Part shown: positions 5,430-61,657 of the stretch, one piece after another | Position numbering within the stretch: the stretch's first letter is position 1 | How the letters are laid out: every line of letters begins with the position of its first letter | Assembly: GCA_951406725.2 (NCBI GenBank) | Contig: OX597833.1 | Coordinates: forward strand, 30,504,001-30,568,000 | DNA from: Octopus vulgaris | Taxonomy: Eukaryota | Length of the DNA stretch: 64,000 bases | Reading direction: 5' to 3' | Notes under the pieces: model-generated | Databases searched by the model: none | What the model was told of the DNA's origin: nothing | What the model saw: only the letters and a program-made list of their open reading frames with translations | Made by a program: the position numbers and the translations under genes

Positions 5430-6950
5430 TGTGTGTGTGGAGTTGACATGCATGGAAAAGTGTTACTATAGCAACCAGCCTGCTTCCAGTAACTCTCTTC
5501 TGTTGTTGATCTTACATTTCTTTTGGTGCATAAGGATGACCTCAGAAATTCTAAGGTTGCTCCTGTTCTGCCTTGATGTGCACTGTGAATTCCTGGGTCT
5601 GGCATTTCCATAGGTGTTTCTTCATGAAAGTGTCTGCTTGTATGTGTTCCTTAATGCATATATGCAGTTTCTTGCTGTGCTTCCTATGTAGGATGCACCA
5701 CATTTGCCTCTGGCACAATTCCAGGTCGTTCGATAATGTGCACTCCTTGGAGTAGTGAGAGGTATTGGTGTTAGACAGAGCTTTTCTCAGGGAAGGGCTA
5801 GCCATTCAGGGTTAGGTCTCTGAGGAACTGCTTGGTGTTGATGGCCTTGTCGGTCACATTGCTGCAATTGTTGTTTATATGTGATGCAGTCTATGAGGAT
5901 ATCTGGCTGGGAGAGCAGGTACAGAGGTTTAGAGGGAAACTACGTCTAAACTAAAAGGGTATTTGTTAGTTTTAAGTATGGAGGGTCGATATCTTTGAGT
6001 CTTATGAAGATTTCGTGGGAACTGCTGATGTGTCTGGGGAATGCATTTAGTAAGGGCTTGAGGAGTTTAGAGAGGAGCCAAGAAATTGTATAGAAAGGAC
6101 CGTTAATTCTTGATACTATGGTCTTAAAAAGCTTAGGTCCAGGTTGTTTGAGTCTAGCTAGTTTGGGGTTGTAAGGGGGAGGGTAGAGTGGGTTATCGAG
6201 GTGGTAGACAGGGAATCTAAGTATAGCGGAGGAGGAGGTAGAAGAAGAAGAAAGAGATGACGATGATGATGAAGGCAGTGAAGATGATGATGAGGAAGGT
6301 GGAGGGGGGAGGAGGAGATAGGAGGTAAAAGGGTAAATGATGATGATGATGGTAAGGATGGTAATGGAGAAGATGATGGTGAGGGTAATATCGGCGATGA
6401 TGTCGGTAGTGAAGATATTGGCAGCAATGACAATGAAGACGAAGATAATGAGGGGGGAGAGGGGGTTTAAGGGCCGTAATCCATTTTAGTTGGTAAGCTG
6501 TGTGACAGAAGTTGATCTCTATCTTCAGTTTCAATTTGTTATTGAGTTTTTGTGTTAGAATGAATTTGGGTCCATAGCTTAGCAGTTGTTTCTCTTCCTG
6601 TGTGAGAGAACCAGTAAGATCTGTAACCAGAGTATTGTTAGCAGCAGCAACAGTGGCCATCATAGGTATGGATATATTAGGTGGTGGTGGTAGTAGGGTG
6701 CATAGAGTTCAGTGGCTGGTCAGTCATTGCTATGGCTGTCATGGTGGTGGTGGTTGGAGCATTTAAGCTGTTATATTTTTGTTGGTCAATGTGGAGTATA
6801 TTGTTGTTGGTGTTAGTGGAGGTGTTGGGATGGTGGTAGTAATTGTTGTTGGTGGAGTTAGCGGTAGAATTTAATCTGTCTCTGTTGGTGGATGTGAGGA
6901 ATATTGTCACCAGTGTTGCTAGAAGGAGTGGAATGGTTACAGCCCTTAAA
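5430..6950 (-). mobile_element. Degenerate, internally deleted Penelope-like element
   Basis: N-terminal DLTGSLTQEEKQLLSYGPKF, RT remnant IVSRINGPFYTISWLLSKLLKPL...SLDVVSL, GIY-YIG remnant CGASYIGST...IKEH; many stops and frameshifts. Confidence 0.8.
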
Positions 6951-7510
6951 CCCCCTCTCCCCACTTCATCGTCATTGCAGCCAATATCTTCACTGTTGAC
7001 ATCATCGCCAATATTACCCTCTACATCATCTTCTCTATCACCATCCTTACCATCTTCATCAGTGTTATCGTCATCATCTACTCCTATCTCCCCTTCCCCC
7101 TCCCTACTTCTTCCTCATCGTCATCTTCGCAGTCTTCTTTATCATCATTGTCATCTCTTCTACCTCCTCCTCTGCTATACTTGGATTCCCCGTCTACCAC
7201 CTCGATAACCCACTCCACCTTCCCTCTCACAACCACGAACTAGCTATACTCAAATGTGGCAAATGTGGTGCATCCTACATAGGAAGCACAACAAGAAAAC
7301 TGTATATACGCATTAAGGAACACATGCAGGCAGACACTTCCATGAAGAAACAGGCCCAGGAATTCACAGTGCACATCAAGGCAACACAGCAGAACAGAGG
7401 CAAACCTAGGATCTCTCAGGTCATCCTCATACACCAAAAGAAACCTAAGATCAACAACAGAAGAGAGTTACTGGGAGCTAGCTGGTTGCTAAAGCAACAC
7501 TTTTCCACAC
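6933..7510 (+). mobile_element. Inverted partial copy of the adjacent Penelope-like element
   Basis: 6933-7245 mirrors 6157-6483 and 7258-7510 mirrors 5450-5707 (IKEHMQADTSMKK...KPKINNRRELL). Confidence 0.8.
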
Positions 7511-7558
7511 ATGCGAATTTCTTAAAATCTCAGCACTGCTTGAGCCTATATATATATA

Positions 7559-7598
<40 letters not shown>

Positions 7599-7601
<3 letters not shown>

Positions 7602-10600
7602 TCATCATCATCATCGTTTAACGTCCGTTTTCCATGCTAGCATGGGTTGGACGGTTCAACTGGGGTCTGGGAAGCCAGAAGGCTGCGCCAGGCCTAGTTT
7701 CATCTGGCAGTGTTTCTACAGGTGGATGCCCTTCCTAACGCCAACCACTCCAAGAGTGTAGTGGGTGCTTTTTATGTGCCACCTGCGCAGGTGCCAAATG
7801 AGGCTGGCAAACAGCCACGATCGGATGGTGCTTTTTATGTGCCACCGGCCCGGGGGCCAGACGAGGCTGGCAACGGCCACAATCAGATGGTGCTTTTTCC
7901 GTGCCACCGGTACAGAGGCCAGTCGGGGCAGCGCTGGCAACGGCCATGTTCGGATGGTTCTCTTACGTGCCACCGGTACTGGTATCTCAGCTACAATTTC
8001 CATTGATGTTGAAAGATTTCGATTTCGATTTTCACTTGCCTCAACAGGTCTTCACAAGTAGGGTTTGTGTCCCAAGAAGGAAAGGTATGCATAAGTGGGC
8101 TGGCTACATCCCAGGTAGAGGCCATGGGTTATGGTCTCACTTGTCCTGCCTGGTCTTCCCACGCACAGCATACTTCCAAAGGTCTCGGTCTTTGGTCATT
8201 TCCTCGGTGAGACCTAAAGTTCGAAGGTCGTTCTTCACCACCTCGTCCCAGGTTTTCCTGGGTCTACCTCTTCCACAGGTTCCCTCAACCGCCAGGGTAT
8301 GGCACTTTTTCACACAACTATCTTCATCCATTCTCGGTACATGACCATACCAGCGCAAACGTCTCTCTTGCACACCACAACTGATGCTTCTTAGGTCCAA
8401 TTTTTCTCTCAAGGTACTTACACACTGTCGAGTATGAACACTGACATTACACATCCATCGGAGCATACTGGCTTCATTTCTTGCGAGCTTATGCATATCC
8501 TCAGCAGTCACGGCCCATGTTTCACTGCCATGTAGCATGCTGTTCGTACACATGCGTCATACAGTCTGCCTTTTGTTCTGAGCGAGAGGCCTTTTGTCAC
8601 CAGCAGAGGTAAGAGCTCTCTGAACTTTGCCCAAGCTATTCTTACTCTAGCAGTTACACTTTCAGCACACCCGCCCCCGCTACTGACTCGGTCACCTAGG
8701 TAATGGAAGCTATCAACTACTTCTAGTTTTTCTCCCTGGAATGTGGCAGAAGTTGGTCTCTGAGCATTTTCAGTGTTTATTGCTCCTGAGCATCTGCCAC
8801 ATACAAAAACTATCTTCCCAGTTAGTTTTCCTTTGACATTGCTGGACCTCTTATGTGTCCATAGCTTACACTTGGTGCATCTTATAGAGTTTCTACCTAC
8901 GCCTTTTCTACTGATCAAGCAGGGCCATCTACCTGAAGGCGTTTATGATTTGCCTGCCTTCCTACATATTAAGACTTTGGTTTTAGCTAAGTTGATCTTA
9001 AGGCCCTTCGATTCTAATCCTTGTCTCCACACTTGAAACTTTGCCTCTAGTTCTGATAGTGACTCAGCAATTAGAGCAAGGTCATCAGCATAGAGGAGCT
9101 CCCAGGGGCATCCTGTCTTGAATTCCTCCGTTATTGCCTGGAGGACTATGATAAATAGGAGGGGGCTGAGGACTGAACTTTGGTGGACCCCTACCTCTAC
9201 TTTGAATTCTTTAGTGTACTCGTTGCCAACCCTCACCTTACTTACAGCGTCTCTGTACATGGCTTGCACAGCTCTCACTAACCATTCATCTATCCCTAGT
9301 TTCCTCATTGACCGCCAGATAAAGGATCAGAGGACCCTGTCAAAGGCTTTCTCCATGTCGACAAAAGCCAGGTACAGGGGCTTATCCTTGGCTAGGTATT
9401 TCTCCTGCAGCTGTCTCACCAGAAATATGGCATCAGTGGTGCTTTTTCCTGGCACGAAACCAAACTGCATCTCATCCAAGCAGACTCTCTCCCTAATCAG
9501 TTGGGCTATGACCCTCTCCGTAACCTTCATTACCTGATCCAACAGCTTGATACCTCTGTAATTATTTGTATCTAAAGCATCACCTTTACCTTTGTAGCAG
9601 TTGACTATTATGCTGCTACACCAGTCATTGGGTATGACTCCTTCGTGTATCACCTGGTTAACTATTTGGGTTACTAGGCTATAGCCAACACTACCAGATA
9701 TTTTAAGCATCTCTGCAGTAATTCCTGATGGGCCTGGGGCTTTCCCTGTCTTCATGCTACTAATTGCCTTAACTACTAAGGAACTGTCAACTCGGATAGC
9801 TGGTCCCTCTGTTGGGTCGACATTTGGCAGACTCTCTTTATCCCATTCATTTTCCTTATTTAGCAGCCTCTCATAATGATGTCTCCAAACCACTCTCTTT
9901 GCATCCTCATTTAGCGCAAGTGAACCATCATCCATGCGAACACATTTCTCTCCTACCACATCACGATTCTCTCTCACACACTGTCTTGCAACACAGAATA
10001 ACCTCAAGTCTTTGGTCCTCACGGTGCAGAACATTGGCAAATTTCTTCTTATCTACTTCCCTTCTGGCTAAATAAACCTGTCTTCTAGCTTCTCTTTTGG
10101 TAGTCTGATACATTTTCCTGCTACCACCATTTTTCCAGTCCTTAATGGCCCTGTCTACAACATTGTTCCACCACCACGTTATTTTGGCTCGAGAGGGGAC
10201 TTTGCACCAGCCACAGATCTGGTCCGTGGCTGTCAGCAGGTTGTCCCTTAGAGAGCTCCAGTTATCTTCTACCCCATGTGAAGCTATATCCCCTTCTACT
10301 TTGTCAAAGGCTTCAAGTAATATGTCCCTAAGTCTCTATCCATTCGCAGGATCTTTAAGCTTCCAGATCCTTCTTCTCCATGTTGGTCGTCCTCTTAGTC
10401 CTGATCCTAAAGTCACTAACTACCAGTTTATGTTGTGGGGTACATTCTTTGCCTGGGAAGGTTTTGGCATTTATAAGCAGCCATCTTTCTCTTCCTGGCA
10501 AGGATGTAGTCAATTTGGCTGGTATGTCGGCTCGGTAGGTGACTAGGTGGCTGGTAGGTTTCTTGAAGTTAGTGTTGCAAACCATAAGATCATTTGCATC

Positions 10601-12754: not shown

Positions 12755-12792
<38 letters not shown>

Positions 12793-12941
12793 AATATAAG
12801 AGAGTGGTCACTATATGGCTCACTCTAGCACCAGTTAATCCAAAAGGTTTCAACCACAAAAATACATGTTTCCCATGAAAGTCAGTACGATTGTTAGCTC
12901 ACACGGACAGGGCAAATAAAAAATAACAAAAATACAGATTA

Positions 12942-13023
12942 TTTTGGGACAATTGTTTCGCTATTAATGAATTAAATGTAATTTTACTTACAAAAAAATC
13001 CACTTGTAGCTCCTCAGCCAAAA
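12942..13023 (-). ncRNA. Type I hammerhead ribozyme (R1 copy 1)
   Basis: UUUUGG-CUGAGGA-GCUA[loop]UAGC-GAAA-CAAUUG-UC-CCAAAA: intact core, stems I and II, palindromic minimal stem III. Confidence 0.85.
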
Positions 13024-13476
13024 CTATCTGGATGAAATCCACTCAATCACACGCCAGATTTTACCATAACGATAAATACGCGTGTGGTTCAATTGATTAC
13101 ATCCGACGTTATAATTCAAATGCCCCAACTAACAGCGCGCCAAATTTTCACGGAAAACAAATACAGCATTTAGAAATAAATGCAGCATAATTATAATTAA
13201 TTAATAAGGGTGAGAGAATTAGATACTAATTTAATAGTATATCTATTCTACACCAAGTGGCCTAGTGCTCCGAGAAACCTGGATTATTATAATATTTTAT
13301 AATATATTATAATATTTTTACAAAATAAATATAAGAGAGTGGTCACTATATGGCTCACTCTAGCACCAGTTAATCCAAAAGGTTTCAACCACAAAAATAC
13401 ATGTTTCCCATGAAAGTCAGTACGATTGTTAGCTCACACGGACAGGGCAAATAAAAAATAACAAAAATACAGATTA

Positions 13477-13558
13477 TTTTGGGACAATTGTTTCGCTATT
13501 AATGAATTAAATGTAATTTTACTTACAAAAAAATCCACTTGTAGCTCCTCAGCCAAAA
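13477..13558 (-). ncRNA. Type I hammerhead ribozyme (R1 copy 2)
   Basis: Appears identical to copy 1, 535 nt away. Confidence 0.85.
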
Positions 13559-13875
13559 CTTACATTTAATTCATTAATAGCGAAACAATTGTCCCAAAAT
13601 AATCTGTATTTTTGTTATTTTTTATTTGCCCTGTCCGTGTGAGCTAACAATCGTACTGACTTTCATGGGAAACATGTATTTTTGTGGTTGAAACCTTTTG
13701 GATTAACTGGTGCTAGAGTGAGCCATATAGTGACCACTCTCTTATATTTATTTTGTAAAAATATTATAATATATTATAAAATATTATAATAATCCAGGTT
13801 TCTCGGAGCACTAGGCCACTTGGTGTAGAATAGATATACTATTAAATTAGTATCTAATTCTCTCACCCTTATTAA

Positions 13876-13949
<74 letters not shown>

Positions 13950-15093: not shown

Positions 15094-18000
15094 TTAAATG
15101 TAAATTGTTTTTGAAAGTTTCTTGGGCCAATGCACTGTTCTGCCCGATTTTGTAACATACGGTGTGCTCGGGGCACCCGTTGACGGCGAGGGTGGTGTTG
15201 TAGGAGCCGGTGAAGGCAAAGGCGTCTGTGCAGGTGAAGGTGTTTGTGCAGGTGAAGGCGTTTGTGCAGGTGAAAGTGTTGTTAAAGGTGCATAGGTGGG
15301 TGTGTCAAGGTTGTCATCAAAAGATGAAGACGTCTCAAAATGTGCCTTTTTTAAACGGTCCACGGAAACGGTCTCCGAACGACCATTTATCTCAATCGTG
15401 AAAACCTTTGGTGTGCGAGAAAGCACACGAAAAGGTCCTTTATAGGGAGAAACAAGTGGGCCCTTCACAGAATCGTCCCGAACAAAAACATGCGACCAGG
15501 TGTTCATATCCGGTGGAGATTGCTTTCTGGGAAGCATGGGCGGAAGGTTTGAAAAATATTCCCGCAGTCTGGTGACATAGGTCGCCGGATCATGGGGCGG
15601 GGAAGTGTCTGGCACCAACATCGTACCGGGCAATGCCAGTGTGGTACCATACAGCAGCTCTGCAGCAGAAAACCCCAGGTCTGCCTTGACAGCAGTCCGA
15701 CAGCCGAGAAGCACAATGGGCAGAAATTCGATCCAGGACTGTGGGTCTGAAGAGGCACGAAGAGCGGCCTTGAGCTGTCTATGGAACCGCTCAACCAATC
15801 CATTAGACGCTGGATGGTAGCTTGTGGTGTGGATATGGTGCATACCCAAAATTCGCGACAATTCGCGAAATAGCGAGGCCTCAAACTGTCGTCCACGATC
15901 AGTTGTCAATCGGGACGGGACTCCGAAACGAGAAATCCAGTTTGAAACGAAAGCTCGCGCAACAGTCTCAGCAGAAATGTCTGCTATCGGAATGGCTTCT
16001 GGCCAGCGAGAGAAGCGATCGACACAAGTTAATAGATAAGAGAACCCGCGACTCACAGGCCATGGTCCAACCAGATCGATGTGGACATGGCGAAAACGGG
16101 CCTCCGTGGGGGGAAATTGTCCAAGCGGGGCACGAACGTGCCGTTGAATCTTGGATCGTTGACACTTGGAGCAGGTGCGTGTCCAAGAAGTAATTGTGCG
16201 ACGCATATTCGGCCAGAAAAACCGAGCAGTGATTAGTTTGAGGGTGGCAGCGATGCCAGGATGTGATAAGGAGTGCAGTGCTTCAAACACTGAGCGTTGA
16301 TGGGTCTCAGGCACCAGTGGCCTGGGAGATCCAGTGGAAGTGTCACAAAGAATGGTGCCTTCGGCTGACGGAAGCGGAAGGTAGGAAAACTGGCAACAGG
16401 AGAACTTGGGAGAAGTTAAATCTAACGACGCCAAAGGTGGCTGCTCCTGCGATATGGCAGCTAAGTCGATAGCAGCAGGAGACGAAAGGGCGCAAACTGG
16501 AAGGCGAGAGAGAGCGTCAGCAGGAACGTTCTCTTTTCCAGGTATGTGTCGAATGTTGCTAGTAAATTGAGAGATAAAATCCAGGTGCCGAAAAGCACGG
16601 GGTGAGAGTTTGTCCGTTTTTGAAAACAGGGCAAACGTAAGGGGCTTGTGATCCGTATAGATCACAAAATCTCGCCCTTCAAGTTGATGCTGGAAATGAC
16701 GAACCGATAGATAGATCGCTAGGAGCTCACGATCAAAGGTGCTGTATCGTCGTTCAGCTGGTTGCAGTTGACGGGAAAAGAAGGCTAGAGGTCGAACATG
16801 GTCATCCACTGTGTGTTGTAACACAGCGCCAATCGCAGTGTCCGATGCGTCCACAGTCAAAGAGAAGCACCAGGAACTGGATGTGCAAGCAAAGAAACAG
16901 AAGCCAGCTCCTTCTTAATGGACTCAAAGGCTGTCACTGCCTCAACAGAGAGGGTGACTTGACTGTCCTTTCTAGGAGAGTCCTTTAACAGCCTGGTGAG
17001 AGGTAGCAGCTTATCTGCACAACCGGGAATGAAGCGTCGGTAGAAATTGACCATCCCTAGATAATGCCTGAGCTGGCGCAAGGAAGTGGGGGGTGCGATG
17101 CGTTGAATGGCATCGACTTTTGACGAGAGGGGGCTGATTCCAGTCGAATCAATATGATGCCCTAGAAAATCTAGGGAAGAGCGTCCGAAAACACACTTGT
17201 CGGGGTTTATGCGTATGCTATACGCGCGAAGACGCTGGAAGAGTTGAGAAAGGTGCCGGAGATGATTTTCTCGTGTGTCGCTCGCAATGAGTATGTCATC
17301 GACATAGGCAAATACAAAATCAAGACCGCGGACAACCTCATCAATGAAACGCTGGAAGGTGCTAGTAGCATTCCGCAAACCGAAACTCATGTACAAAAAC
17401 TCAAAACACCCAAACGGGGTAGTGATTGCAGTTTTTGGAACGTCGGCTGGGTTGACCGGTATTTGGTGGTAAGCGCGTATCAGATCGACCTTCGAAAAAA
17501 TGGTACAACCATGGAGATTTGCTGTAAAGTCCCGGAGATTTCTAATCGGATAGCGATCGGCTATTGTGACGGCATTGAGGCGTCGATAGTCTCCAACCGG
17601 GCGAAAATCAGACTCGCCCTTTCGCGCCAAATGAAGAGGAGATGCCCATAGGCTGGTGGAGGGGCGTATAAGGCCGAGTTGAAGCATGTGCTCAAACTCG
17701 GCTCTGGCCGTTTTTAGTCGGTCTGGCGCCAGGCGCCGGGGGCGTGAGAATACAGGTGGCCCATTGGTGGTGATGAAATGGAGGGTCGAGTGGGTAGGCT
17801 TTTCCGGTTTAAAGGCAATGTCCACTAGCTCCGGAAATGAAACCAAAAGAGAGTGAAAAGGGTCTCCAGAGGTGGCAACAAAGAATGTCGGGCTAAGGAC
17901 CGCAGTGGTGGAACTCCCAGTCGGTGTAGAGAGCGACGTCGTGCTATCAAGAAGCCTCCGACGCCTGACATCCACCAATAGGTTAAACCTATCCAGGAAA

Positions 18001-18330
18001 TCAGCGCCGAGAATAGGATGCGGGATGTCAGCGATGACGTAAACCCATCGAAAGTCTCGACGAAAGTTGAGGTCGAGGCGCAGCGAAATCTGACCGTAAG
18101 TGGTTATGGGAGACGAGTCAATAGCATGCAAGACAATCGAAGAGCGCTTGGGCTTGTCTGCAGCCAGACGAAGGGGCCAGATGCTGCAACAGGAGCCGGT
18201 GTCCACCATGAAGAAATTCTTCGACACCAGATCTTTTACATAGAATGCACGATGTTTGGGAAACGAGATGGAAGAAGGTGACGTGCTCACCTCCTCCGGA
18301 TTTAGTTTTCCGAGGGCTTGAAAGTGCACG
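15094..18330 (-). pseudogene. pol (protease, RT, RNase H, integrase) with a frameshift at ~16858
   Basis: VDTGS protease, YVDD RT, VDASD RNase H, HHCC and D,D35E integrase, GPF motif; split between ORFs 16857-18380 and 15094-16860. Confidence 0.9.
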
Positions 18331-19037
18331 GCTGGGTACACCGATCTGCCTTTTCGGCATATCTCGAATGGTACCAGCACCAGCTGGAACGAGAAACAGA
18401 GTCACTCCGACTGCGGGAAATAGAGCTACTGCGACTACGAGATTGGCGTCCGATCGCACGGCACAGATCATCGATCCTCCGCGTAAGCGCGTCGATGTTC
18501 TCGGCCAGTTTATCGTTCGTCGGAGGTGTCGGGGGGCTCTGTACATGCGTACAGGCCCCGCGAGGGAGATGGGCGCGAAAACTCCAACACTTTGTCGGCC
18601 ATCGTGGCGATCTGGTCCACAGACACAGCATCCAGTACCGTGGCCAACATTGTCTGCACGTGGGCAGGCAGCCTTGAGAAAAATATCTTACGTAAGAGCG
18701 GCGCGTCAGCGGCGTTGCCGCTTAGCTCTCTTAGATGGCGCAGAAATTGGGATGGAGTTCTGTCCCCTAACTGCTCGTCGGCCATCAGTTCATTAAACTG
18801 ACTTTCTTCTGAGCGCGTATTGCGACGGAGGATCTCCGCCTTTACTGACGCATATGTGGCGTCAGGATGGGGACTCACAATGAGATCCCTGACCGATGTT
18901 GCGAGCCGGGAGGGCAAACTTGAATACAGTAGATGTAACTGCTGTTGTGGCGGAATGGTATGCGCGGCAAAGTGTGATTCCACCTGTGCAAACCACAGCC
19001 CCGCATCCCCCGTAAATGAAGGCAAACCTGAAGCCAT
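18302..19037 (-). pseudogene. gag with a frameshift at ~18550
   Basis: MASGLPSFTGDAGLWFAQVE...LGDRTPSQFLRHL, then the CHCC knuckle in another frame, ending GGAAAAC-TAA (probable -1 gag-pol shift site). Confidence 0.85.
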
Positions 19038-19424
19038 GCCTTTGTCGGAAGGAATCTGTGAGAAGGGGGCAGAAGGTATGGTCGAGAAATGGAGAGAGAA
19101 CACGTGGAACCGAGAAGGCAAATCAAAATTGTGTTTGTGTGTGCACCTCGTGGGTAGCAAAAAAAAAGAGGAATAAGTGTGTACAAGGAAAACAAAATAC
19201 AGAAAAGGAAAAAATGAATGAATGTGTGTGTTTTCTTTTTTTTCTTTCTTTTTTTTTTTGTACTGTGTGCGATGAATAAGGTTATTTGACCCACCTCGCC
19301 GTGCTGAAAAGGAGAAAAATGAATCAAAATAAATATTAATTTTCCGCGCTCTTCGGCCCCCCAAAAAACCTGTTCGCTGTGTCTACTTCTATCCTGTTCT
19401 TTTTCTCATCTAGGGGTCACCAAT

Positions 19425-42263: not shown

Positions 42264-42299
42264 ATATATATATACACATTTATATATATATATATATAT

Positions 42300-42490
42300 A
42301 AATATGAGAGAGTGACTATGTGGTTAATTCTAGCGCTAAAAATAGCTCCGTTACTGGTATAGCCACTAAAACTTGTTTCCAAGATGCTAAAAATAGCTCT
42401 GTTACTGGTATAGCCACGTGTTTCCTCTTGGAAACAAGTTTTAGTGGCTATACCAATAATGGAGCTATTTTTAGCATCTTGGAAACAATA
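42300..42490. repeat. Short tandem-plus-inverted fold-back immediately 5' of the PLE ORF
   Basis: gctaaaaatagctc-gttactggtatagccac occurs twice, then its reverse complement at 42427-42476; the left end resembles the R1 terminus. Confidence 0.75.
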
Positions 42491-42500
42491 AATTATATAT

Positions 42501-44402
42501 GATATCCCGGCACTGTATGGACTTCGCAAGGACCATAAAGTTTTTACTGACCCTATAGCAGGACCACCAACAAGACCAGTCTGTGGAGCGAATATTGCTA
42601 GCAATTACAGAATCTCCTACTTCCTCTCAATGATCATACGCCCTATAATCAGGATGTCACCTGATGTGTGTGACAGCACAGAAGATCTCCTAAGCAGGAT
42701 CAGTGACTGTAACAAAACTTGTGACTTGACAGGATGTATAGTAGGTAGCATGGATGTGGTATCCCTATACCCATCGATTGACGTAGACTTTGCAGTGGAG
42801 AAGTGCGTGGAGATGATCAACGAGAGCCAGGTGGAGTTCTGTAATGTCGACACAGAAGAACTGGGCCTCCTACTTAGACTGACATATAATAATGAATACT
42901 TAGATAAACATAATCTTAGTAGTTTCTGCCCCAGTAGATGTTTAAGAGGTAGACCGCCTACAATTACTTCTATGGCTAGGAAGACACATATAGAAAGATG
43001 GCGCGGATGGACCAGAGCCATACGGAGCCCCGCAAATGTCCATCAGGTAAAGAAAATGATCGCACATGCACTAGGAGCTAGTATAAGAGTTACCCTAAAA
43101 GGCCACACATTTAAATTTAATAATAAAATATATGCCCAGGACGAGGGGGCAGCCATCGGTGTTAGTATCGCTGGTGATGTGGCCAACCTTTTCATGGTAT
43201 GGTGGGACAGAAGGCTTAAAGAATGCCTACTGCAGAAATCCATACTCGTAAACATGTATTCTCGCTATGTTGATGATATCAACATAGTAGTAAAGGCACC
43301 CCCACAAGAGAGTAATGTTGATATAGTAATAGAAACTAATACTATGGAGAGCATCCAGCAAATAGCTAACTCCATCCACCAGAGTATTAAGGTCACAATA
43401 GACTACCCCACTAAACACCCCAACCATAGACTACCAGTACTAGACACTGAACTCTGGCTAGAAATTGTGAAAAATAAAACCCAAATCCTTCATTCATACT
43501 ATGCAAAACCTATGGCCTCAAAATACCTAATCCACCGGAACTCAGCCATTGCGGGCAATGCCAAATTCAATATTTTGATGGCAGACCTCGTCAGAATAAT
43601 GAGAAATGTGTCACGCATGTGCGAGCCTACAGAATTAAAGAGACACATACAGTATTTCATTCACCGCATGCAGTTCTCAGGTTACAGCCATAAAGAAAGG
43701 ATCAGAGTATACAAAGGAGCCATGAAGAAATTTGATAATATATTATGTAATGATAGGAATGGGATTTGCCCAATCTATAGGAACAAGTCATAGAACACTA
43801 TAGAAAGGACAAAAAAGAAAATAGGGAAGGCCAACTCTTGGTATGATAGCCATAAATACCAGAGTGTCATGTTCGTTGACACCACCCCTGGAGGTGAACT
43901 GGCGTACCGCTTTAGAAGGACCCTAGATAAACTTAAACTAAGAATTAAGGTTGTTGAAAAGCCAGGCAACCCTATCAAATCTATAATTGGTAGAACCTAT
44001 CCTTTTAGTAGAACCCTCTGTACGGATAACTATTGCACTGTATGTAGATTTAGCCCACAAACAAACTGTAAAGCCAGAAATGTAGTCTATAGTATAAGAT
44101 GTATAGAGGGACGATGCAGTAACAAGACAGTAACATACGTAGGGGAAACAGCAAGAAGCATAGGAGAGCGGGTGAATGAACATTGGAGACAACTCAAGGA
44201 AGGTAAAAGCTCATCGATTCTGTACCAACACGCCGAACAGGAACACGGGGGATCAATCAATAACATAGAGATTAAGATATTGTCCACACATAGAACAGAT
44301 GCAACAATTAGACAAATTACAGAAGCTACACATATAATAGAAAATAAACCTAGCCTGAATAGAAAACTAGAATGGAGCAATAGCACACACCACAACATAT
44401 GA
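42501..44402 (+). mobile_element. Penelope-like retroelement RT + GIY-YIG ORF, 5'-truncated, one in-frame TAG at 43791-43793
   Basis: PALYGLRKDHK, PPTRPV, GSMDVVSLYPSID, QDEGAAIG, RYVDD, LPVLD; Cys-rich linker CTDNYCTVC..C (Neptune-like); VVYSIRC...YVGETAR...R..EH. Confidence 0.93.
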
Positions 44403-56623: not shown

Positions 56624-57871
56624 AACAATGTATAAATTAATATTTTAACAATAATATTCAAACACAATTCAGTTCAAAAATTAAATAATATTGTCATATA
56701 AATATGTTACTTATCTTATCGAAGAACATTTTATAACTGAATTTTAAACGTAAAAACGTAGGCCTTAGTGTGTATAAGAAATTAAACTCACAAAGACGTT
56801 GTGTAAAAAGATAGAATAAATTTATTAATGAAAGCGACAAAATATATTTATTAGTGAAAATAACAAAAAATATTTAAGCTTCTAGAATCAAAGAATAAGA
56901 GAACAAAAAACTATAAATGACTATTTACTATAAATTTAAAGTCCAAATAATTATTGCGTAAAATATATTTGAATTAATTTATATTACTATAATTAACAGA
57001 TCTTAATAAATTTATATATTCATTTAATTATAAAAAAATATCCAAGTTTAAACGTATTCAAATATAATAATATAACATATAATATCATGCTAATTTATAC
57101 ACTAACACTACTACATTATATCTACAATAAATAAATAATATAAAATGGTTTTATATATATATGGAAAATTAGCTAAACCTATCATATAAGTAAATTAATT
57201 TATGTTTGCACTTAATTTTATGCTCATCTAGTGAATTATCCGATACATAATTATATATTAAATAATATTTCCTTAAATTCATTATTACAGGATTAACAAG
57301 AATAAAATTTTGCCTTACAAATTTCTCCCAAGTTAATTTATATTTAATACATTTAGATTTAAGTTCCCAAATATATTTACTGAGGCCTGTTGAATTAATT
57401 AGATTTCTGTTCCTAAAAGAATACATGTTAAGCCACTCTTAATTTAATTTTATTCGAAGTTGACCCTATATAGATAGTGTTTAAATTATAATCATTCATA
57501 TTATCATCCATTAAAGTTACCATACATTTATAAACTACATTATCCAAATTACATTTATTATTAAGTTGCATGTAGTCTTATCTCTCCATGTACAATAAAT
57601 TATATCATGGTCTTTATTATTATTTTTAGAATCATTATTTAATTTATTTTTATAGAATTTATTTAATTTAAATTCATTAAATGAAGAAATAATATTACCA
57701 ACATTATTAGTAGTTGAATAACCAACTCCAAAATTATTACTAAAAAAAATGTTATAACATTTTTTATTATCCCTAATGAACATTTCAATTATATTTAAAA
57801 TCTCTTTGATAACAATTGTTTTTACCTGAGCCCCAAAAGGAAAGTTTAACCATATTTTATTCTTATTTTTA

Positions 57872-57927
<56 letters not shown>

Positions 57928-58759
57928 TTTTTGTAATATTATTAAATTTATTATCATCATTAATTGAATCAAATTTTATCTTATTTGTATTTTTATTTTT
58001 TATTCCATTATTAAATGTATGATTTATATTATCATAATACCTATTATTATTAAGACCATAGTTACCTAAATAAAACTTAACATAATTCCGATAATTAGGT
58101 TTATTATTATAAAAATCATTTATATTATAATCCTTTAAATTATAATTATATTTACAAATATTAAAGAATTTAATATTATTATTATATCCTGCCTCATGCA
58201 GGGCTTTCTTATGATAAGGTGCATGTTTATTAAAAATCTCTAAATCATAAGAAAGTAATGATATTCTTTTACCTACGTTATTTATCAGCGATTTTTTAAC
58301 AGAAGGTGGATGATTACTATAAGCATTAATATATCTAAGATTTTCATTATTTTTATGGAATGGTTGGGTTTTACCCATTATTAAATTAAAATTAACATCT
58401 AAATAATTAACATGATAGTTCTCATTAAAAATAGTAATACTTAAACCATATCTTTTAAAGAAATTATAAAGTTTCTTCTTATATAATTCTAATTTTCTAT
58501 TTGTACAATTCTTCGTAAGTAATAATAGGTCATTTTAAATTTTCTAATTGAAGTTCTGATAATAAATAAATACCTACTAATACAGTAGCCTGTGCAGAAT
58601 CTGGTGCCCCCATAGGTATATCAAAAGAGTTCCTAGTATCCTTCCTAGCTTATAATTTATTATTATATCTGATTAACGATTTCCTAGCCATTTTAATAAC
58701 ATTAAGGTCATCAGAAGTCATTCCTATCTTATTCCCTTAGAAATATTAATAACCAGGTT

Positions 58760-59623: not shown

Positions 59624-59690
<67 letters not shown>

Positions 59691-59771
59691 TATATATGTT
59701 TGTGTGTCTGTGTTTGTCACACACACACCCAACATCACTTGACAACCAATGCTGGTGTGTTTATATCCCCA

Positions 59772-59836
<65 letters not shown>

Positions 59837-60214: not shown

Positions 60215-60264
<50 letters not shown>

Positions 60265-60448
60265 GAAGTAAATATATGGCACAACGAAGTACCGATATTT
60301 ACTGGAAATAGCAAACGTAATAATACAACGCCAATGTATAGCTTCACCACGTATGTACTAGCAAAAATGCGTGAGTGCAACAAACTTGAAAAAAATTGTC
60401 TTACCTCCAGGGAGAACATCTGAAAGATGAAATACCTAGAAAAGGATA

Positions 60449-60528
60449 ATGTGGGACCGGAGCCGGTTTCAGATTTTTCAAGATATACCTCCACACATAT
60501 ACTTGATCTATCTTCATCAGCCAAACAT
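60449..60528 (-). ncRNA. Type I hammerhead ribozyme (R2)
   Basis: AUGUUUGG-CUGAUGA-AGAU[ext]AUCU-GAAA-CCGGCUCCGG-UC-CCACAU. Confidence 0.85.
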
Positions 60529-61053
60529 ATACCATGACAACATTTCAGATGTTACCACATTAATGCCAATACACTCGACTGAAAGGCCGAAATGCTAACA
60601 GAACGAGAACGGTGAAGAAGCTTCAATAAAATTAGTAATACAATACGAAAGTATTGCTTTCCAGTAAAGAGTAGCCCGCGAGGGAAAATTATACATAGAA
60701 GTAAATATATGGCACAACGAAGTACCGATATTTACTAGAAATAGCGAACGTAATAATACGACGCTAATGTATAGCTTCACCGCGTATGTACTAGCAAAAA
60801 TGCGTGAGTGCAACAAACTTGAAAAAAATTGTCTTACCTCCATATCGGTACTTCGTTGTGCCATATATTTACTTCTGTGTATAATTTTCCCTCGCGGCTA
60901 CTCTTTACTGGAAAGTAATACTTTCGTATTGCATTACTAATTTTATTGAAGCTTCTTCACCGTTCTCGTTCTGTTAGCGTTTCAGTCGAGTGTATTGGCA
61001 TTAATGTGGTAACATCTGAAATGTTGTCATGGTACATGTTTGGCTGATGGTAC

Positions 61054-61133
61054 ATGTTTGGCTGATGAAGATAGATCAAGTATATGTGTGCAGGCATATC
61101 TTGAAAAATCTGAAACCGGCTCCGGTCCCACAT
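61054..61133 (+). ncRNA. Type I hammerhead ribozyme (R2)
   Basis: CTGATGA at 61062-61068, stem II AGAT/ATCT with UCAAG/CUUGA extension, GAAA at 61112-61115, stem III ACCG-GCTC-CGGT, GUC site at 61125-61127. Confidence 0.88.
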
Positions 61134-61414
61134 TATCCCTTTCTAGGTGTTTCATCTTTCAGATGTTCTCCCTGGAGGTAAGACAATTTTTTTCAAGTTT
61201 GTTGCACTCACGCATTTTTGTTAGTATATACGCGGTGAAGCTATACATTAGCGTTGTATTATTACGTTTGCTATTTCCAGTAAATATCGGTACTTCGTTG
61301 TGCCATATATTTACTTCTATGTATAATTTTCCCTCGCGGGCTACTCTTTACTGGAAAGCAATACTTTCGTATTGCATTACTAATTTTATATATATATATA
61401 TAAATATTCTTATA

Positions 61415-61617
61415 TTTGTTTCAATCATTTGACTGTGGCCATGCTAGAGCACCACCTTTAATTGAACAGATTGACCCCAGGACTTATTCTTTGTTAGCCT
61501 ACTACTTATTCTTTCTTTTGCCAAATTGCTAAGTTATGGGGATATAAACACACCAGCATTGGTTGTCAAGTGATGTTGGGTGTGTGTGTGATTAACACAG
61601 ACACACAAACATATATA

Positions 61618-61620
<3 letters not shown>
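61415..61620 (-). mobile_element. tRNA SINE 3' half
   Basis: Reverse complement of the 26590-26762 tail. Confidence 0.8.

Positions 61621-61654
<34 letters not shown>

Positions 61655-61657
<3 letters not shown>

What the first reader, a model, noticed from the sequence alone, without database searches (positions are those of the whole stretch)
60261..61388. R2: an unrelated 433-nt tandem element with a fully canonical hammerhead
Seen: a 433-nt monomer in partial tandem on both arms of a fold-back. Its HHR has CUGAUGA, an extended stem II (AGAU/AUCU, UCAAG/CUUGA, AUAUG/CAUAU), GAAA, a real 4-bp stem III (ACCG-GCUC-CGGU) and a GUC site. I see no sequence similarity to R1. The outer ends of the two arms lie at different points of the monomer (circular permutation), as expected if RT ran around a circular or multimeric RNA template. 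Inference: a second independent retrozyme family, possibly active as a monomer because stem III is stable.
Basis: partly seen in the sequence, partly recalled or inferred. Interest (0 to 1): 0.85.

Follow-up and report, generated by a model that had tools for sequence, protein, structure and literature searches.

The report
Retrozyme whose hammerhead gained a stem
This is one of several hundred copies of a small protein-free repeat with a predicted self-cutting RNA; its copies end at two fixed points inside TA repeats, so a Penelope-type enzyme likely pastes them in, and its youngest branch has a longer ribozyme stem, likely made by a six-letter duplication, that would let one molecule cut itself alone.

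Summary
Sequence observation confirmed; the 'circular permutation' inference is refuted. 60257-61389 is one insertion of a dispersed 433-nt type I hammerhead repeat (653 exact hits of one 29-nt motif). Ends are not permuted: 178 of 195 arms in 122 loci stop at one of two fixed 3' points 64 nt apart, mostly in (TA)n, and head-to-head arm pairs are one of each (53 of 54 classifiable). That is the Penelope-like element (PLE) 'tail' footprint, so this is a non-autonomous PLE-type retrozyme. No autonomous partner was found. The hammerhead covaries across subfamilies. Older copies carry a 2-bp, then a 1-bp palindromic helix III; the 4-bp helix III marks one young nested branch whose basal members show an exact 6-nt tandem duplication, later a compensatory G-C to U-A change. 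Cleavage, circles and expression are untested; circle versus linear template is unresolved. The window copy has one ribozyme per arm and could not release a monomer. The scan noted the same two-armed footprint before in other repeat families of this genome, not in this one. New member of a known kind, with a useful natural series of ribozyme variants.

The parts
60257..60842 (-). Left arm, 1.35 monomers; its 3' (RNA-sense) end is fixed site A at 60257, fused to a (TA)n tract
   Evidence: site A ends 100 of 195 arms
60842..61389 (+). Right arm, 1.26 monomers; its 3' end is fixed site B at 61389, fused to (TA)n
   Evidence: site B ends 78 of 195 arms
60840..60845 (.). Inversion joint where the 5' ends of the two arms meet (monomer positions 153 and 42, 1-nt overlap); joint position varies from locus to locus
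61049..61138 (+). Type I hammerhead, right arm: C3 61062, long interrupted stem II 61069-61111, predicted cut after 61127
   Evidence: activity untested
60444..60533 (-). Type I hammerhead, left arm: C3 60520, C17 60455
61115..61127 (+). 4-bp helix III; descends from a 6-nt tandem duplication in a 1-bp helix III ancestor (inferred from tree)
61326..61389 (+). 64-nt tail between sites A and B, present only on the B arm (PLE-type tail)
   Evidence: PMC8557442, PMC11167929
61274..61375 (+). Predicted structured domain around site A: 11-bp helix (61274-61284 with 61347-61357) followed by a 7-bp hairpin (61358-61375) whose variation is confined to the loop; candidate RT-binding site (inferred)
61029..61067 (+). 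18-nt tandem duplication private to this arm, just upstream of and into the ribozyme core
61174..61183 (+). Splice-donor-like motif about 50 nt after the cut site, kept in middle and young subfamilies; use not shown
   Evidence: no matching joint
60227..60256 (.). (TA)n target tract, left
61390..61402 (.). (TA)n target tract, right

Best explanation
This is one dispersed insertion of a 433-nt non-coding hammerhead repeat whose copies end at two fixed points in TA repeats, and it was likely written into the genome by a Penelope-like reverse transcriptase/endonuclease acting in trans. Shown: anatomy, copy dispersal, two fixed 3' ends, one-of-each arm pairing, shared variants between the arms of a locus, covarying ribozyme, order of subfamilies. 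Inferred mechanism: a PLE protein binds the structured region around sites A and B, cuts both strands of a (TA)n tract, and each cut strand primes reverse transcription on the same RNA, one at A and one at B, 64 nt further 3'. The two cDNAs grow toward the RNA 5' side, stop at variable points and are joined, which gives two head-to-head arms with a tail on one. The template is not a cut linear monomer; I take a monomer circle, made from the rare loci with two ribozymes in a row, as the likelier template (about 55:35 over an uncut linear multimer). In the latest branch a 6-nt duplication turned a 1-bp, dimer-type helix III into a 4-bp helix, predicted to allow cutting by a single ribozyme.
For: Fixed ends: 121 of 146 arms in 88 loci; 59 of 62 arms in 40 loci picked only by the tail motif; 178 of 195 after dropping 6 suspected duplicate loci and widening B to positions 366-381, where about 13 would be expected by chance (expectation is my arithmetic, 29 of 433 positions). 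Pairing: 53 A+B, 0 B+B, 1 A+A (a SINE-interrupted arm), 11 with one unassigned end. (TA)-rich 20-nt flank at 97 of 121 and 48 of 59 A/B ends. PLE insertions are described as partial tandems with an inverted 5'-truncated copy, a 30-40-bp tail and microsatellite bias (PMC8557442, passages); a purified PLE protein cuts and extends both strands of AT-rich DNA and starts at two internal RNA sites that bound the tail (PMC11167929, parts 1-2 of 4). A young intact PLE family in this genome shows two ends 56 nt apart in (TA)n. One source per locus: subfamily alleles differ at 5 of 182 sites between in-register arms, 18 of 238 out of register, versus 38% between loci; rare variants shared at 2.3-4.1 per kb versus 0.18. 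No pile-up of 5' ends at the cut site (4 of 195) and 6 of 29 B arms in the tail-picked sample run past it. Ribozyme: 94.5% of cells paired, 11 of 25 pairs with double changes, slid controls 26-43%; helix III pair G-C in 84, U-A in 19, unpaired in 1 of 104 units. Tree without helix III columns: 4-bp copies form one side of a branch (94/90) inside the 1-bp copies, whose monophyly is rejected (p-AU 1.5e-8). Circular monomer folds at z = -4.5 against 60 shuffles.
Against: No autonomous partner found: no DNA likeness of young, middle or old monomers to 90 PLE loci or 3 longer ones, and none of 40 tail-picked loci joins a PLE ORF. The tail (64 nt) is longer than the 30-40 bp in print. Only 3 of 195 arms hold two ribozymes, so circle sources are scarce. 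In-register arms are slightly more alike than out-of-register units (p 0.05-0.10, pairs not independent), and in L025 adjacent units differ at 3 of 3 subfamily sites, which a single circle does not explain without template switching or conversion. Gene conversion between arms could also make arms alike. The active fold is not the predicted minimum. The U-A change is one event, not 19. The 4-bp branch is not starred (94/90) and rows for the alignment and tree were picked by a pattern that demands the core.
Confidence: 0.75

Rival explanations
1. Same PLE-driven insertion, but the template is an uncut linear read-through transcript of a partial-tandem copy; the hammerhead acts elsewhere in the cycle or needs protein, and no circle is needed.
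For: Longest arms are only about 2.1 units; slight excess likeness of in-register arms and mixed units in L025; in the anole PLE, ribozyme cleavage was not needed for insertion in vitro and uncut RNA was the main substrate (PMC11167929).
Against: Units out of register still share rare variants 13-15 times more often than different loci, and new subfamily alleles appear in all units of a locus, as expected if one monomer is copied repeatedly; linear copying alone can only shorten arms.
Confidence: 0.35
2. One reading: RT starts anywhere on a circle, so genomic copies are circularly permuted.
For: Inner (5') ends are scattered over the monomer, and arms cross the monomer junction.
Against: Outer ends sit at two fixed sites in 178 of 195 arms, including a sample not chosen by its ends.
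Confidence: 0.03
3. The second arm comes from snap-back: one cDNA started at B folds on itself and copies itself back to A.
For: Arms share variants; joints often overlap by 1-5 nt.
Against: In the window copy the A arm (586 nt) is longer than the part of the B arm that could template it (484 nt); likewise L004, L005, L011. Lone A arms and lone B arms both occur.
Confidence: 0.1
4. The unit is only the pseudo-LTR of an unseen autonomous PLE, and the copies are its 5'-truncated insertions.
For: Architecture is identical to that of truncated PLEs; Xenopus retrozymes are homologous to pLTRs (10.64898/2026.07.22.740005).
Against: Units join head to tail with no ORF between them; 0 of 40 tail-picked loci have a PLE ORF attached within about 5 kb; none of 30 best matches of the old subfamily is joined in sense to a PLE ORF as far as inspected.
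Confidence: 0.07
5. The hammerhead is a dead relic and the repeat spreads as DNA (satellite-like duplication, conversion).
For: No activity data; active fold not the predicted minimum.
Against: Double changes in stems I, II and III across subfamilies up to about 30% apart; dispersal on most chromosomes with 5' truncation and fixed 3' ends, typical of reverse transcription.
Confidence: 0.05

Closest known systems
Metazoan non-LTR retrozymes (Cervera and de la Pena 2020, PMC7229834: passages, sections 15 and 17; Li, Clavereau and Pollet 2026, 10.64898/2026.07.22.740005: parts 1-3 of 5)
   Same: Type I hammerhead in a 150-450-bp low-GC (37%) non-coding unit, head-to-tail joins, strongly self-paired predicted monomer, co-occurrence with PLEs.
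   Different: Mostly dispersed, short, two-armed insertions rather than arrays (3 of 195 arms with two ribozymes); two fixed ends mapped; no pLTR relative found; circles and cleavage not shown.
Penelope-like elements, EN+ clades (Craig et al. 2021, PMC8557442: passages; Frangieh et al. 2024, PMC11167929: parts 1-2 of 4)
   Same: Partial tandem, inverted 5'-truncated arm, tail on one side, (TA)n targets, ribozyme upstream of the two end points.
   Different: No ORF; tail 64 nt rather than 30-40; ribozyme is full-size with a long stem II, not a minimal PLE motif.
Axolotl HHR_Amex1 and HHR_Amex2 (PMC7229834, section 15) and the usual metazoan 1-2-bp palindromic helix III (PMC4209133, passages)
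   Same: The old and middle subfamilies have exactly these forms: 2 bp plus palindromic tetraloop, and 1 bp plus palindromic tetraloop, which in axolotl cut poorly alone (22% and 6% in an hour) and well as dimers.
   Different: Here both forms and a 4-bp form follow each other in one lineage; the window copy belongs to the 4-bp branch.
Non-autonomous Chlamys elements such as MRC1 (PMC8557442, passage)
   Same: Non-autonomous PLE-type elements with pLTRs and head-to-tail copies.
   Different: Those resemble their autonomous family at the 3' end and belong to a clade described as lacking canonical hammerheads; no such partner likeness was found here.

Membership tests
Non-LTR retrozyme | Type I hammerhead with intact core and three stems | tested here: met
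Non-LTR retrozyme | Short unit (150-450 bp), GC under 45-50%, non-coding | tested here: met
   433 nt, 37% GC; one 96-codon stop-free frame, no Pfam hit
Non-LTR retrozyme | Head-to-tail repeats with at least two complete ribozymes (the 'active' criterion of Li et al.) | tested here: inconclusive
   Window locus: one ribozyme per arm, not met for this copy; family: 3 of 195 sampled arms meet it; long arrays not seen but only about 150 loci were read
Non-LTR retrozyme | Self-cleavage of the transcript | not testable with these tools
   folding predictions only
Non-LTR retrozyme | Expressed as linear and circular monomer RNA | tested here: inconclusive
   no run on record as RNA was listed; contigs of four guessed-RNA runs cover the unit but cannot show circles or expression
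Non-autonomous Penelope-like element | Partial tandem plus inverted 5'-truncated arm | tested here: met
Non-autonomous Penelope-like element | Tail between two fixed 3' end points | tested here: met
   64 nt; 178 of 195 arms at A or B
Non-autonomous Penelope-like element | Microsatellite (AT-rich) target | tested here: met
Non-autonomous Penelope-like element | Sequence homology to the pLTR or 3' end of an autonomous PLE | tested here: inconclusive
   none among 93 PLE loci from three searches; the genome holds thousands of GIY-YIG candidates, of which 150 were scored
Autonomous PLE | RT plus GIY-YIG ORF | tested here: not met
LTR retrozyme (plant type) | Type III hammerhead in direct LTRs | tested here: not met
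   ribozyme is type I; arms are inverted

The most novel reading that the evidence does not exclude
One retrozyme lineage records a ribozyme upgrade: a 6-nt slippage duplication turned a dimer-dependent hammerhead into a monomer-competent one, selection then kept the new helix by compensatory change and rebuilt a 12-nt palindrome in its loop, and this branch became the latest to amplify, each insertion being written from one RNA circle by a PLE enzyme primed at two fixed sites on both cut strands.
Probability: 0.3. Interest if true: 0.72.

Novelty: new member of a known kind. Interest (0 to 1): 0.45.

Why it matters
PLE mobilisation of animal retrozymes has been argued from co-occurrence and pLTR homology; the one-A-one-B rule in 53 of 54 arm pairs is a direct genomic footprint of the two start sites seen in vitro for a PLE protein, on an RNA that encodes nothing. 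The role of the hammerhead in this cycle is open (dispensable in vitro for the anole PLE). This family offers natural 2-bp, 1-bp and 4-bp helix III variants in one background and in known order, so one can test whether monomer versus dimer cleavage matters for circle formation and spread.

Tried and rejected
Rfam: no hit at gathering score in the window, no hammerhead family down to E 10 at the locus; probably due to the long stem II, not evidence against. Shuffle z-scores of the isolated ribozyme are near zero, so stability alone is no evidence. Sequencing runs: no RNA holder listed; contigs of X1, X2, X4, X6 (RNA only guessed) cover the unit, include the 1-bp and U-A variants and one head-to-tail joint, which fits tandem DNA as well as a circle; not used as evidence of expression. 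A comparison with likely DNA runs was not obtained, so that control is open. Splicing or back-splicing between the donor-like site and a possible acceptor: no such joint; dropped. Coding role of a 96-codon frame across the ribozyme: no Pfam hit; dropped. An antisense hammerhead-like string near 60580: absent from the scan and private to one arm; dropped. Partner search with the window's Neptune-like RT, a GIY-YIG piece beside an old copy and Pfam GIY-YIG: no DNA likeness. Register test for circle versus linear template: inconclusive. First tree had rows with unrelated flank and was redone. Target-site duplications cannot be read inside (TA)n. Literature: seven searches; none of the listings names a cephalopod retrozyme, a two-site footprint for a retrozyme, or a helix III gain by duplication; subscription papers, Repbase and Dfam were not searchable, and supplements of the cited papers were not read (those of PMC7229834 and of the bioRxiv preprint may list related motifs).

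Full report
OBSERVATION. The locus is 60257-61389, between two (TA)n tracts. It consists of two head-to-head arms of one 433-nt unit: left 60257-60842 (433 + 153 nt, RNA sense on the minus strand) and right 60842-61389 (548 nt, sense on plus, with a private 18-nt duplication). A strict descriptor finds these 2 sites in the window and 1 site in 100 shuffled windows. There is no likeness to R1. Rfam does not detect the motif. The host is a 2.8-Gb animal genome; I take it for a cephalopod from recalled SINE sequence and from earlier scan notes, not from a call.

FAMILY. A 29-nt motif of the unit has 653 exact matches in the genome, control 0; a strict ribozyme pattern has 63. Copies lie on most large contigs. 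Young copies differ from their majority by 1.2% on average (82 units); older subfamilies reach 64-88% identity to the window copy.

ENDS ARE FIXED, NOT PERMUTED. I mapped loci against a tetramer of the unit. In 88 loci found by monomer, ribozyme or pattern searches, 121 of 146 arms end 3' at site A (monomer position 1, window 60257) or site B (position 370-373, window 61389). Because two of those searches favour copies that start at A, I took 40 further loci from the first 100 listed hits of the tail motif: 59 of 62 arms end at A or B, and many are only 20-150 nt long. Pooled, without 6 suspected duplicate loci and with B widened to 366-381: 100 A, 78 B, 17 other of 195 arms. The inner 5' ends are scattered. 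Where two arms meet head to head, 53 pairs are A+B, none B+B, one A+A (an arm broken by a SINE), and 11 have one unassigned end. Flanks are TA-rich at 97 of 121 and 48 of 59 A/B ends. This is the anatomy described for PLEs: partial tandem, inverted truncated copy, tail on one side, microsatellite bias (PMC8557442, passages). A purified PLE protein cuts and extends both strands of AT-rich DNA and starts at two internal RNA sites that bound the tail (PMC11167929). A young PLE family with intact 1312-aa frames in this genome ends at two points 56 nt apart in (TA)n.

TEMPLATE. Arms and units of a locus come from one source: subfamily alleles differ at 3-9% of sites within a locus and 38% between loci; rare variants are shared at 2.3-4.1 per kb against 0.18 (7 loci left out as duplicated or rearranged; pairs are not independent, and conversion could add to this). 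A cut linear monomer would stop cDNA 198 nt from A or 262 nt from B; only 4 of 195 inner ends lie there, and 6 of 29 B arms in the tail-picked sample run past it. So the template was a circle or an uncut multimer. A test by register did not decide: in-register arms are a little more alike (5 of 182 versus 18 of 238 allele mismatches, p 0.05; shared rare variants p 0.10), and L025 has unlike neighbouring units. Only 3 of 195 arms hold two ribozymes (L004, L129, L131), and the window copy holds one per arm, so it could not itself release a monomer. I lean to a circle because new alleles appear in all units of a locus and because linear copying cannot restore arm length; this is inference. Snap-back copying cannot give the window copy, whose A arm is longer than its possible template in the B arm.

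RIBOZYME. Across 28 copies from all subfamilies 94.5% of cells pair (shuffles 87.9 +/- 0.6, 0 of 500 as high), 11 of 25 pairs show double changes (23 of 500 as high), and slid structures pair at 26-43%. The rows were picked by a core pattern and are related, so core invariance is not evidence and the counts are not events; six young rows are out of register in distal stem I because of a 2-nt bulge. Helix III comes in three forms: 2 bp with a palindromic tetraloop in the oldest copies, 1 bp with a palindromic tetraloop in middle copies, 4 bp in young copies. In a tree of 49 of 82 usable rows (young rows thinned to at most five per variant), built without the helix III interior and rooted on two 2-bp copies, the 1-bp copies form a ladder (one clade rejected, p-AU 1.5e-8) and the 4-bp copies are one side of a branch at its tip (94/90, not starred) (same result with the columns kept). 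Nearest-neighbour identity rises from 0.86 to 0.97 to 0.98, in line with that order. The sister of the 4-bp group (L203) has the 6-nt word once, and the basal 4-bp copies have it twice in exact tandem; later copies change the loop, one group to a perfect 12-nt palindrome, and one sub-branch swaps the outer G-C pair for U-A (84, 19 and 1 discordant of 104 units; one event). In print, metazoan helix III is usually 1-2 bp and needs a dimer (PMC4209133, passages); axolotl 1-bp and 2-bp motifs cut 6% and 22% in an hour as monomers and far better as dimers (PMC7229834, section 15). Folding predictions agree in part: helix III closes only in 4-bp copies; the active fold of the bare ribozyme costs 1.2-3.4 kcal/mol in five 4-bp copies, 7.9-11.5 in four 1-bp copies and 3.9 in one 2-bp copy; with flanks the gap is 3.7-9.8 versus 8.6-11.5, because an upstream stretch competes for stem I. 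Monomer activity is therefore plausible and unproven. The circularised unit folds at -109 kcal/mol, z = -4.5 against 60 shuffles, with an 11-bp helix enclosing site A and a 7-bp hairpin before site B.

PARTNER AND EXPRESSION. No autonomous partner was identified: no DNA likeness to 93 PLE loci, no ORF joined to 40 tail-picked loci. No run on record as RNA was listed, and the contigs laid cannot show expression or circles.

COMPARISON AND VERDICT. It works like, and by the testable features belongs to, the metazoan non-LTR retrozymes, now proposed to be non-autonomous PLE derivatives (PMC7229834; 10.64898/2026.07.22.740005). My reading was recorded before I opened the scan's notes; eight listed notes describe the same two-armed footprint in other families (360 and 485-495 nt) of this genome, and a look-up by sequence found none on this family. 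They are unchecked notes and add no evidence. What this family adds is the ordered series of helix III forms and a clean one-A-one-B count. New member of a known kind; interest 0.45.

Noticed in passing
window 12760-13884: R1 has the same two-armed anatomy in (TA)n with about 106 nt between its two outer end points and a short palindromic helix III (ribozyme cores at 13017 and 13552, minus strand). Its end resembles, at 77-80% over 40-65 nt, short pieces beside two PLE copies, one at window ~42295-42335.
   Followed up: partly
window 42492-44402 (+): 5'-truncated PLE (RT plus GIY-YIG, Neptune-like by recalled motifs) with one in-frame stop between the domains; member of a very young family (145 scored matches at 97-100% identity, several 1312-aa open frames). 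Its pLTR holds a variant minimal hammerhead read by eye, a donor-like site and two end points 56 nt apart.
   Followed up: partly
window 57869-58534 (-): AT-rich decayed frame that looks like a PLE RT C-terminal part (Naiad-like by recall); no Pfam hit.
   Followed up: no
window 59653-59776 and 61532-61655: 124-nt inverted pair, 98% complementary, of SINE-tail-like sequence on both sides of the element; local duplication or conversion.
   Followed up: no
window 15094-19400 (-): Gypsy-like gag/pol frames (named from recalled motifs).
   Followed up: no
window 5946-7761: Broken PLE-like pieces on both strands (RT start and GIY-YIG motifs by recall).
   Followed up: no
L186:156-264, L212:2818-2925, L222:2282-2390, L249, L277, L280: Hammerheads of at least three further unrelated repeat families turned up by chance in fetched flanks.
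   Followed up: no
L299-L301: A second young PLE family with a 781-aa RT-EN frame preceded by a separate upstream frame and a repeat-rich pLTR with a variant minimal hammerhead read by eye.
   Followed up: partly
L027, L029, L126-L128 (contig C31); L118 and L136 (contig C18): Near-identical copies with shared joints and flanks, probably segmental duplications; all but one of each set were dropped from counts.
   Followed up: partly
L188 and L189: Two loci 2.4 Mb apart share the same arm joint but differ by exactly one monomer in the B arm (514 versus 85 nt).
   Followed up: no
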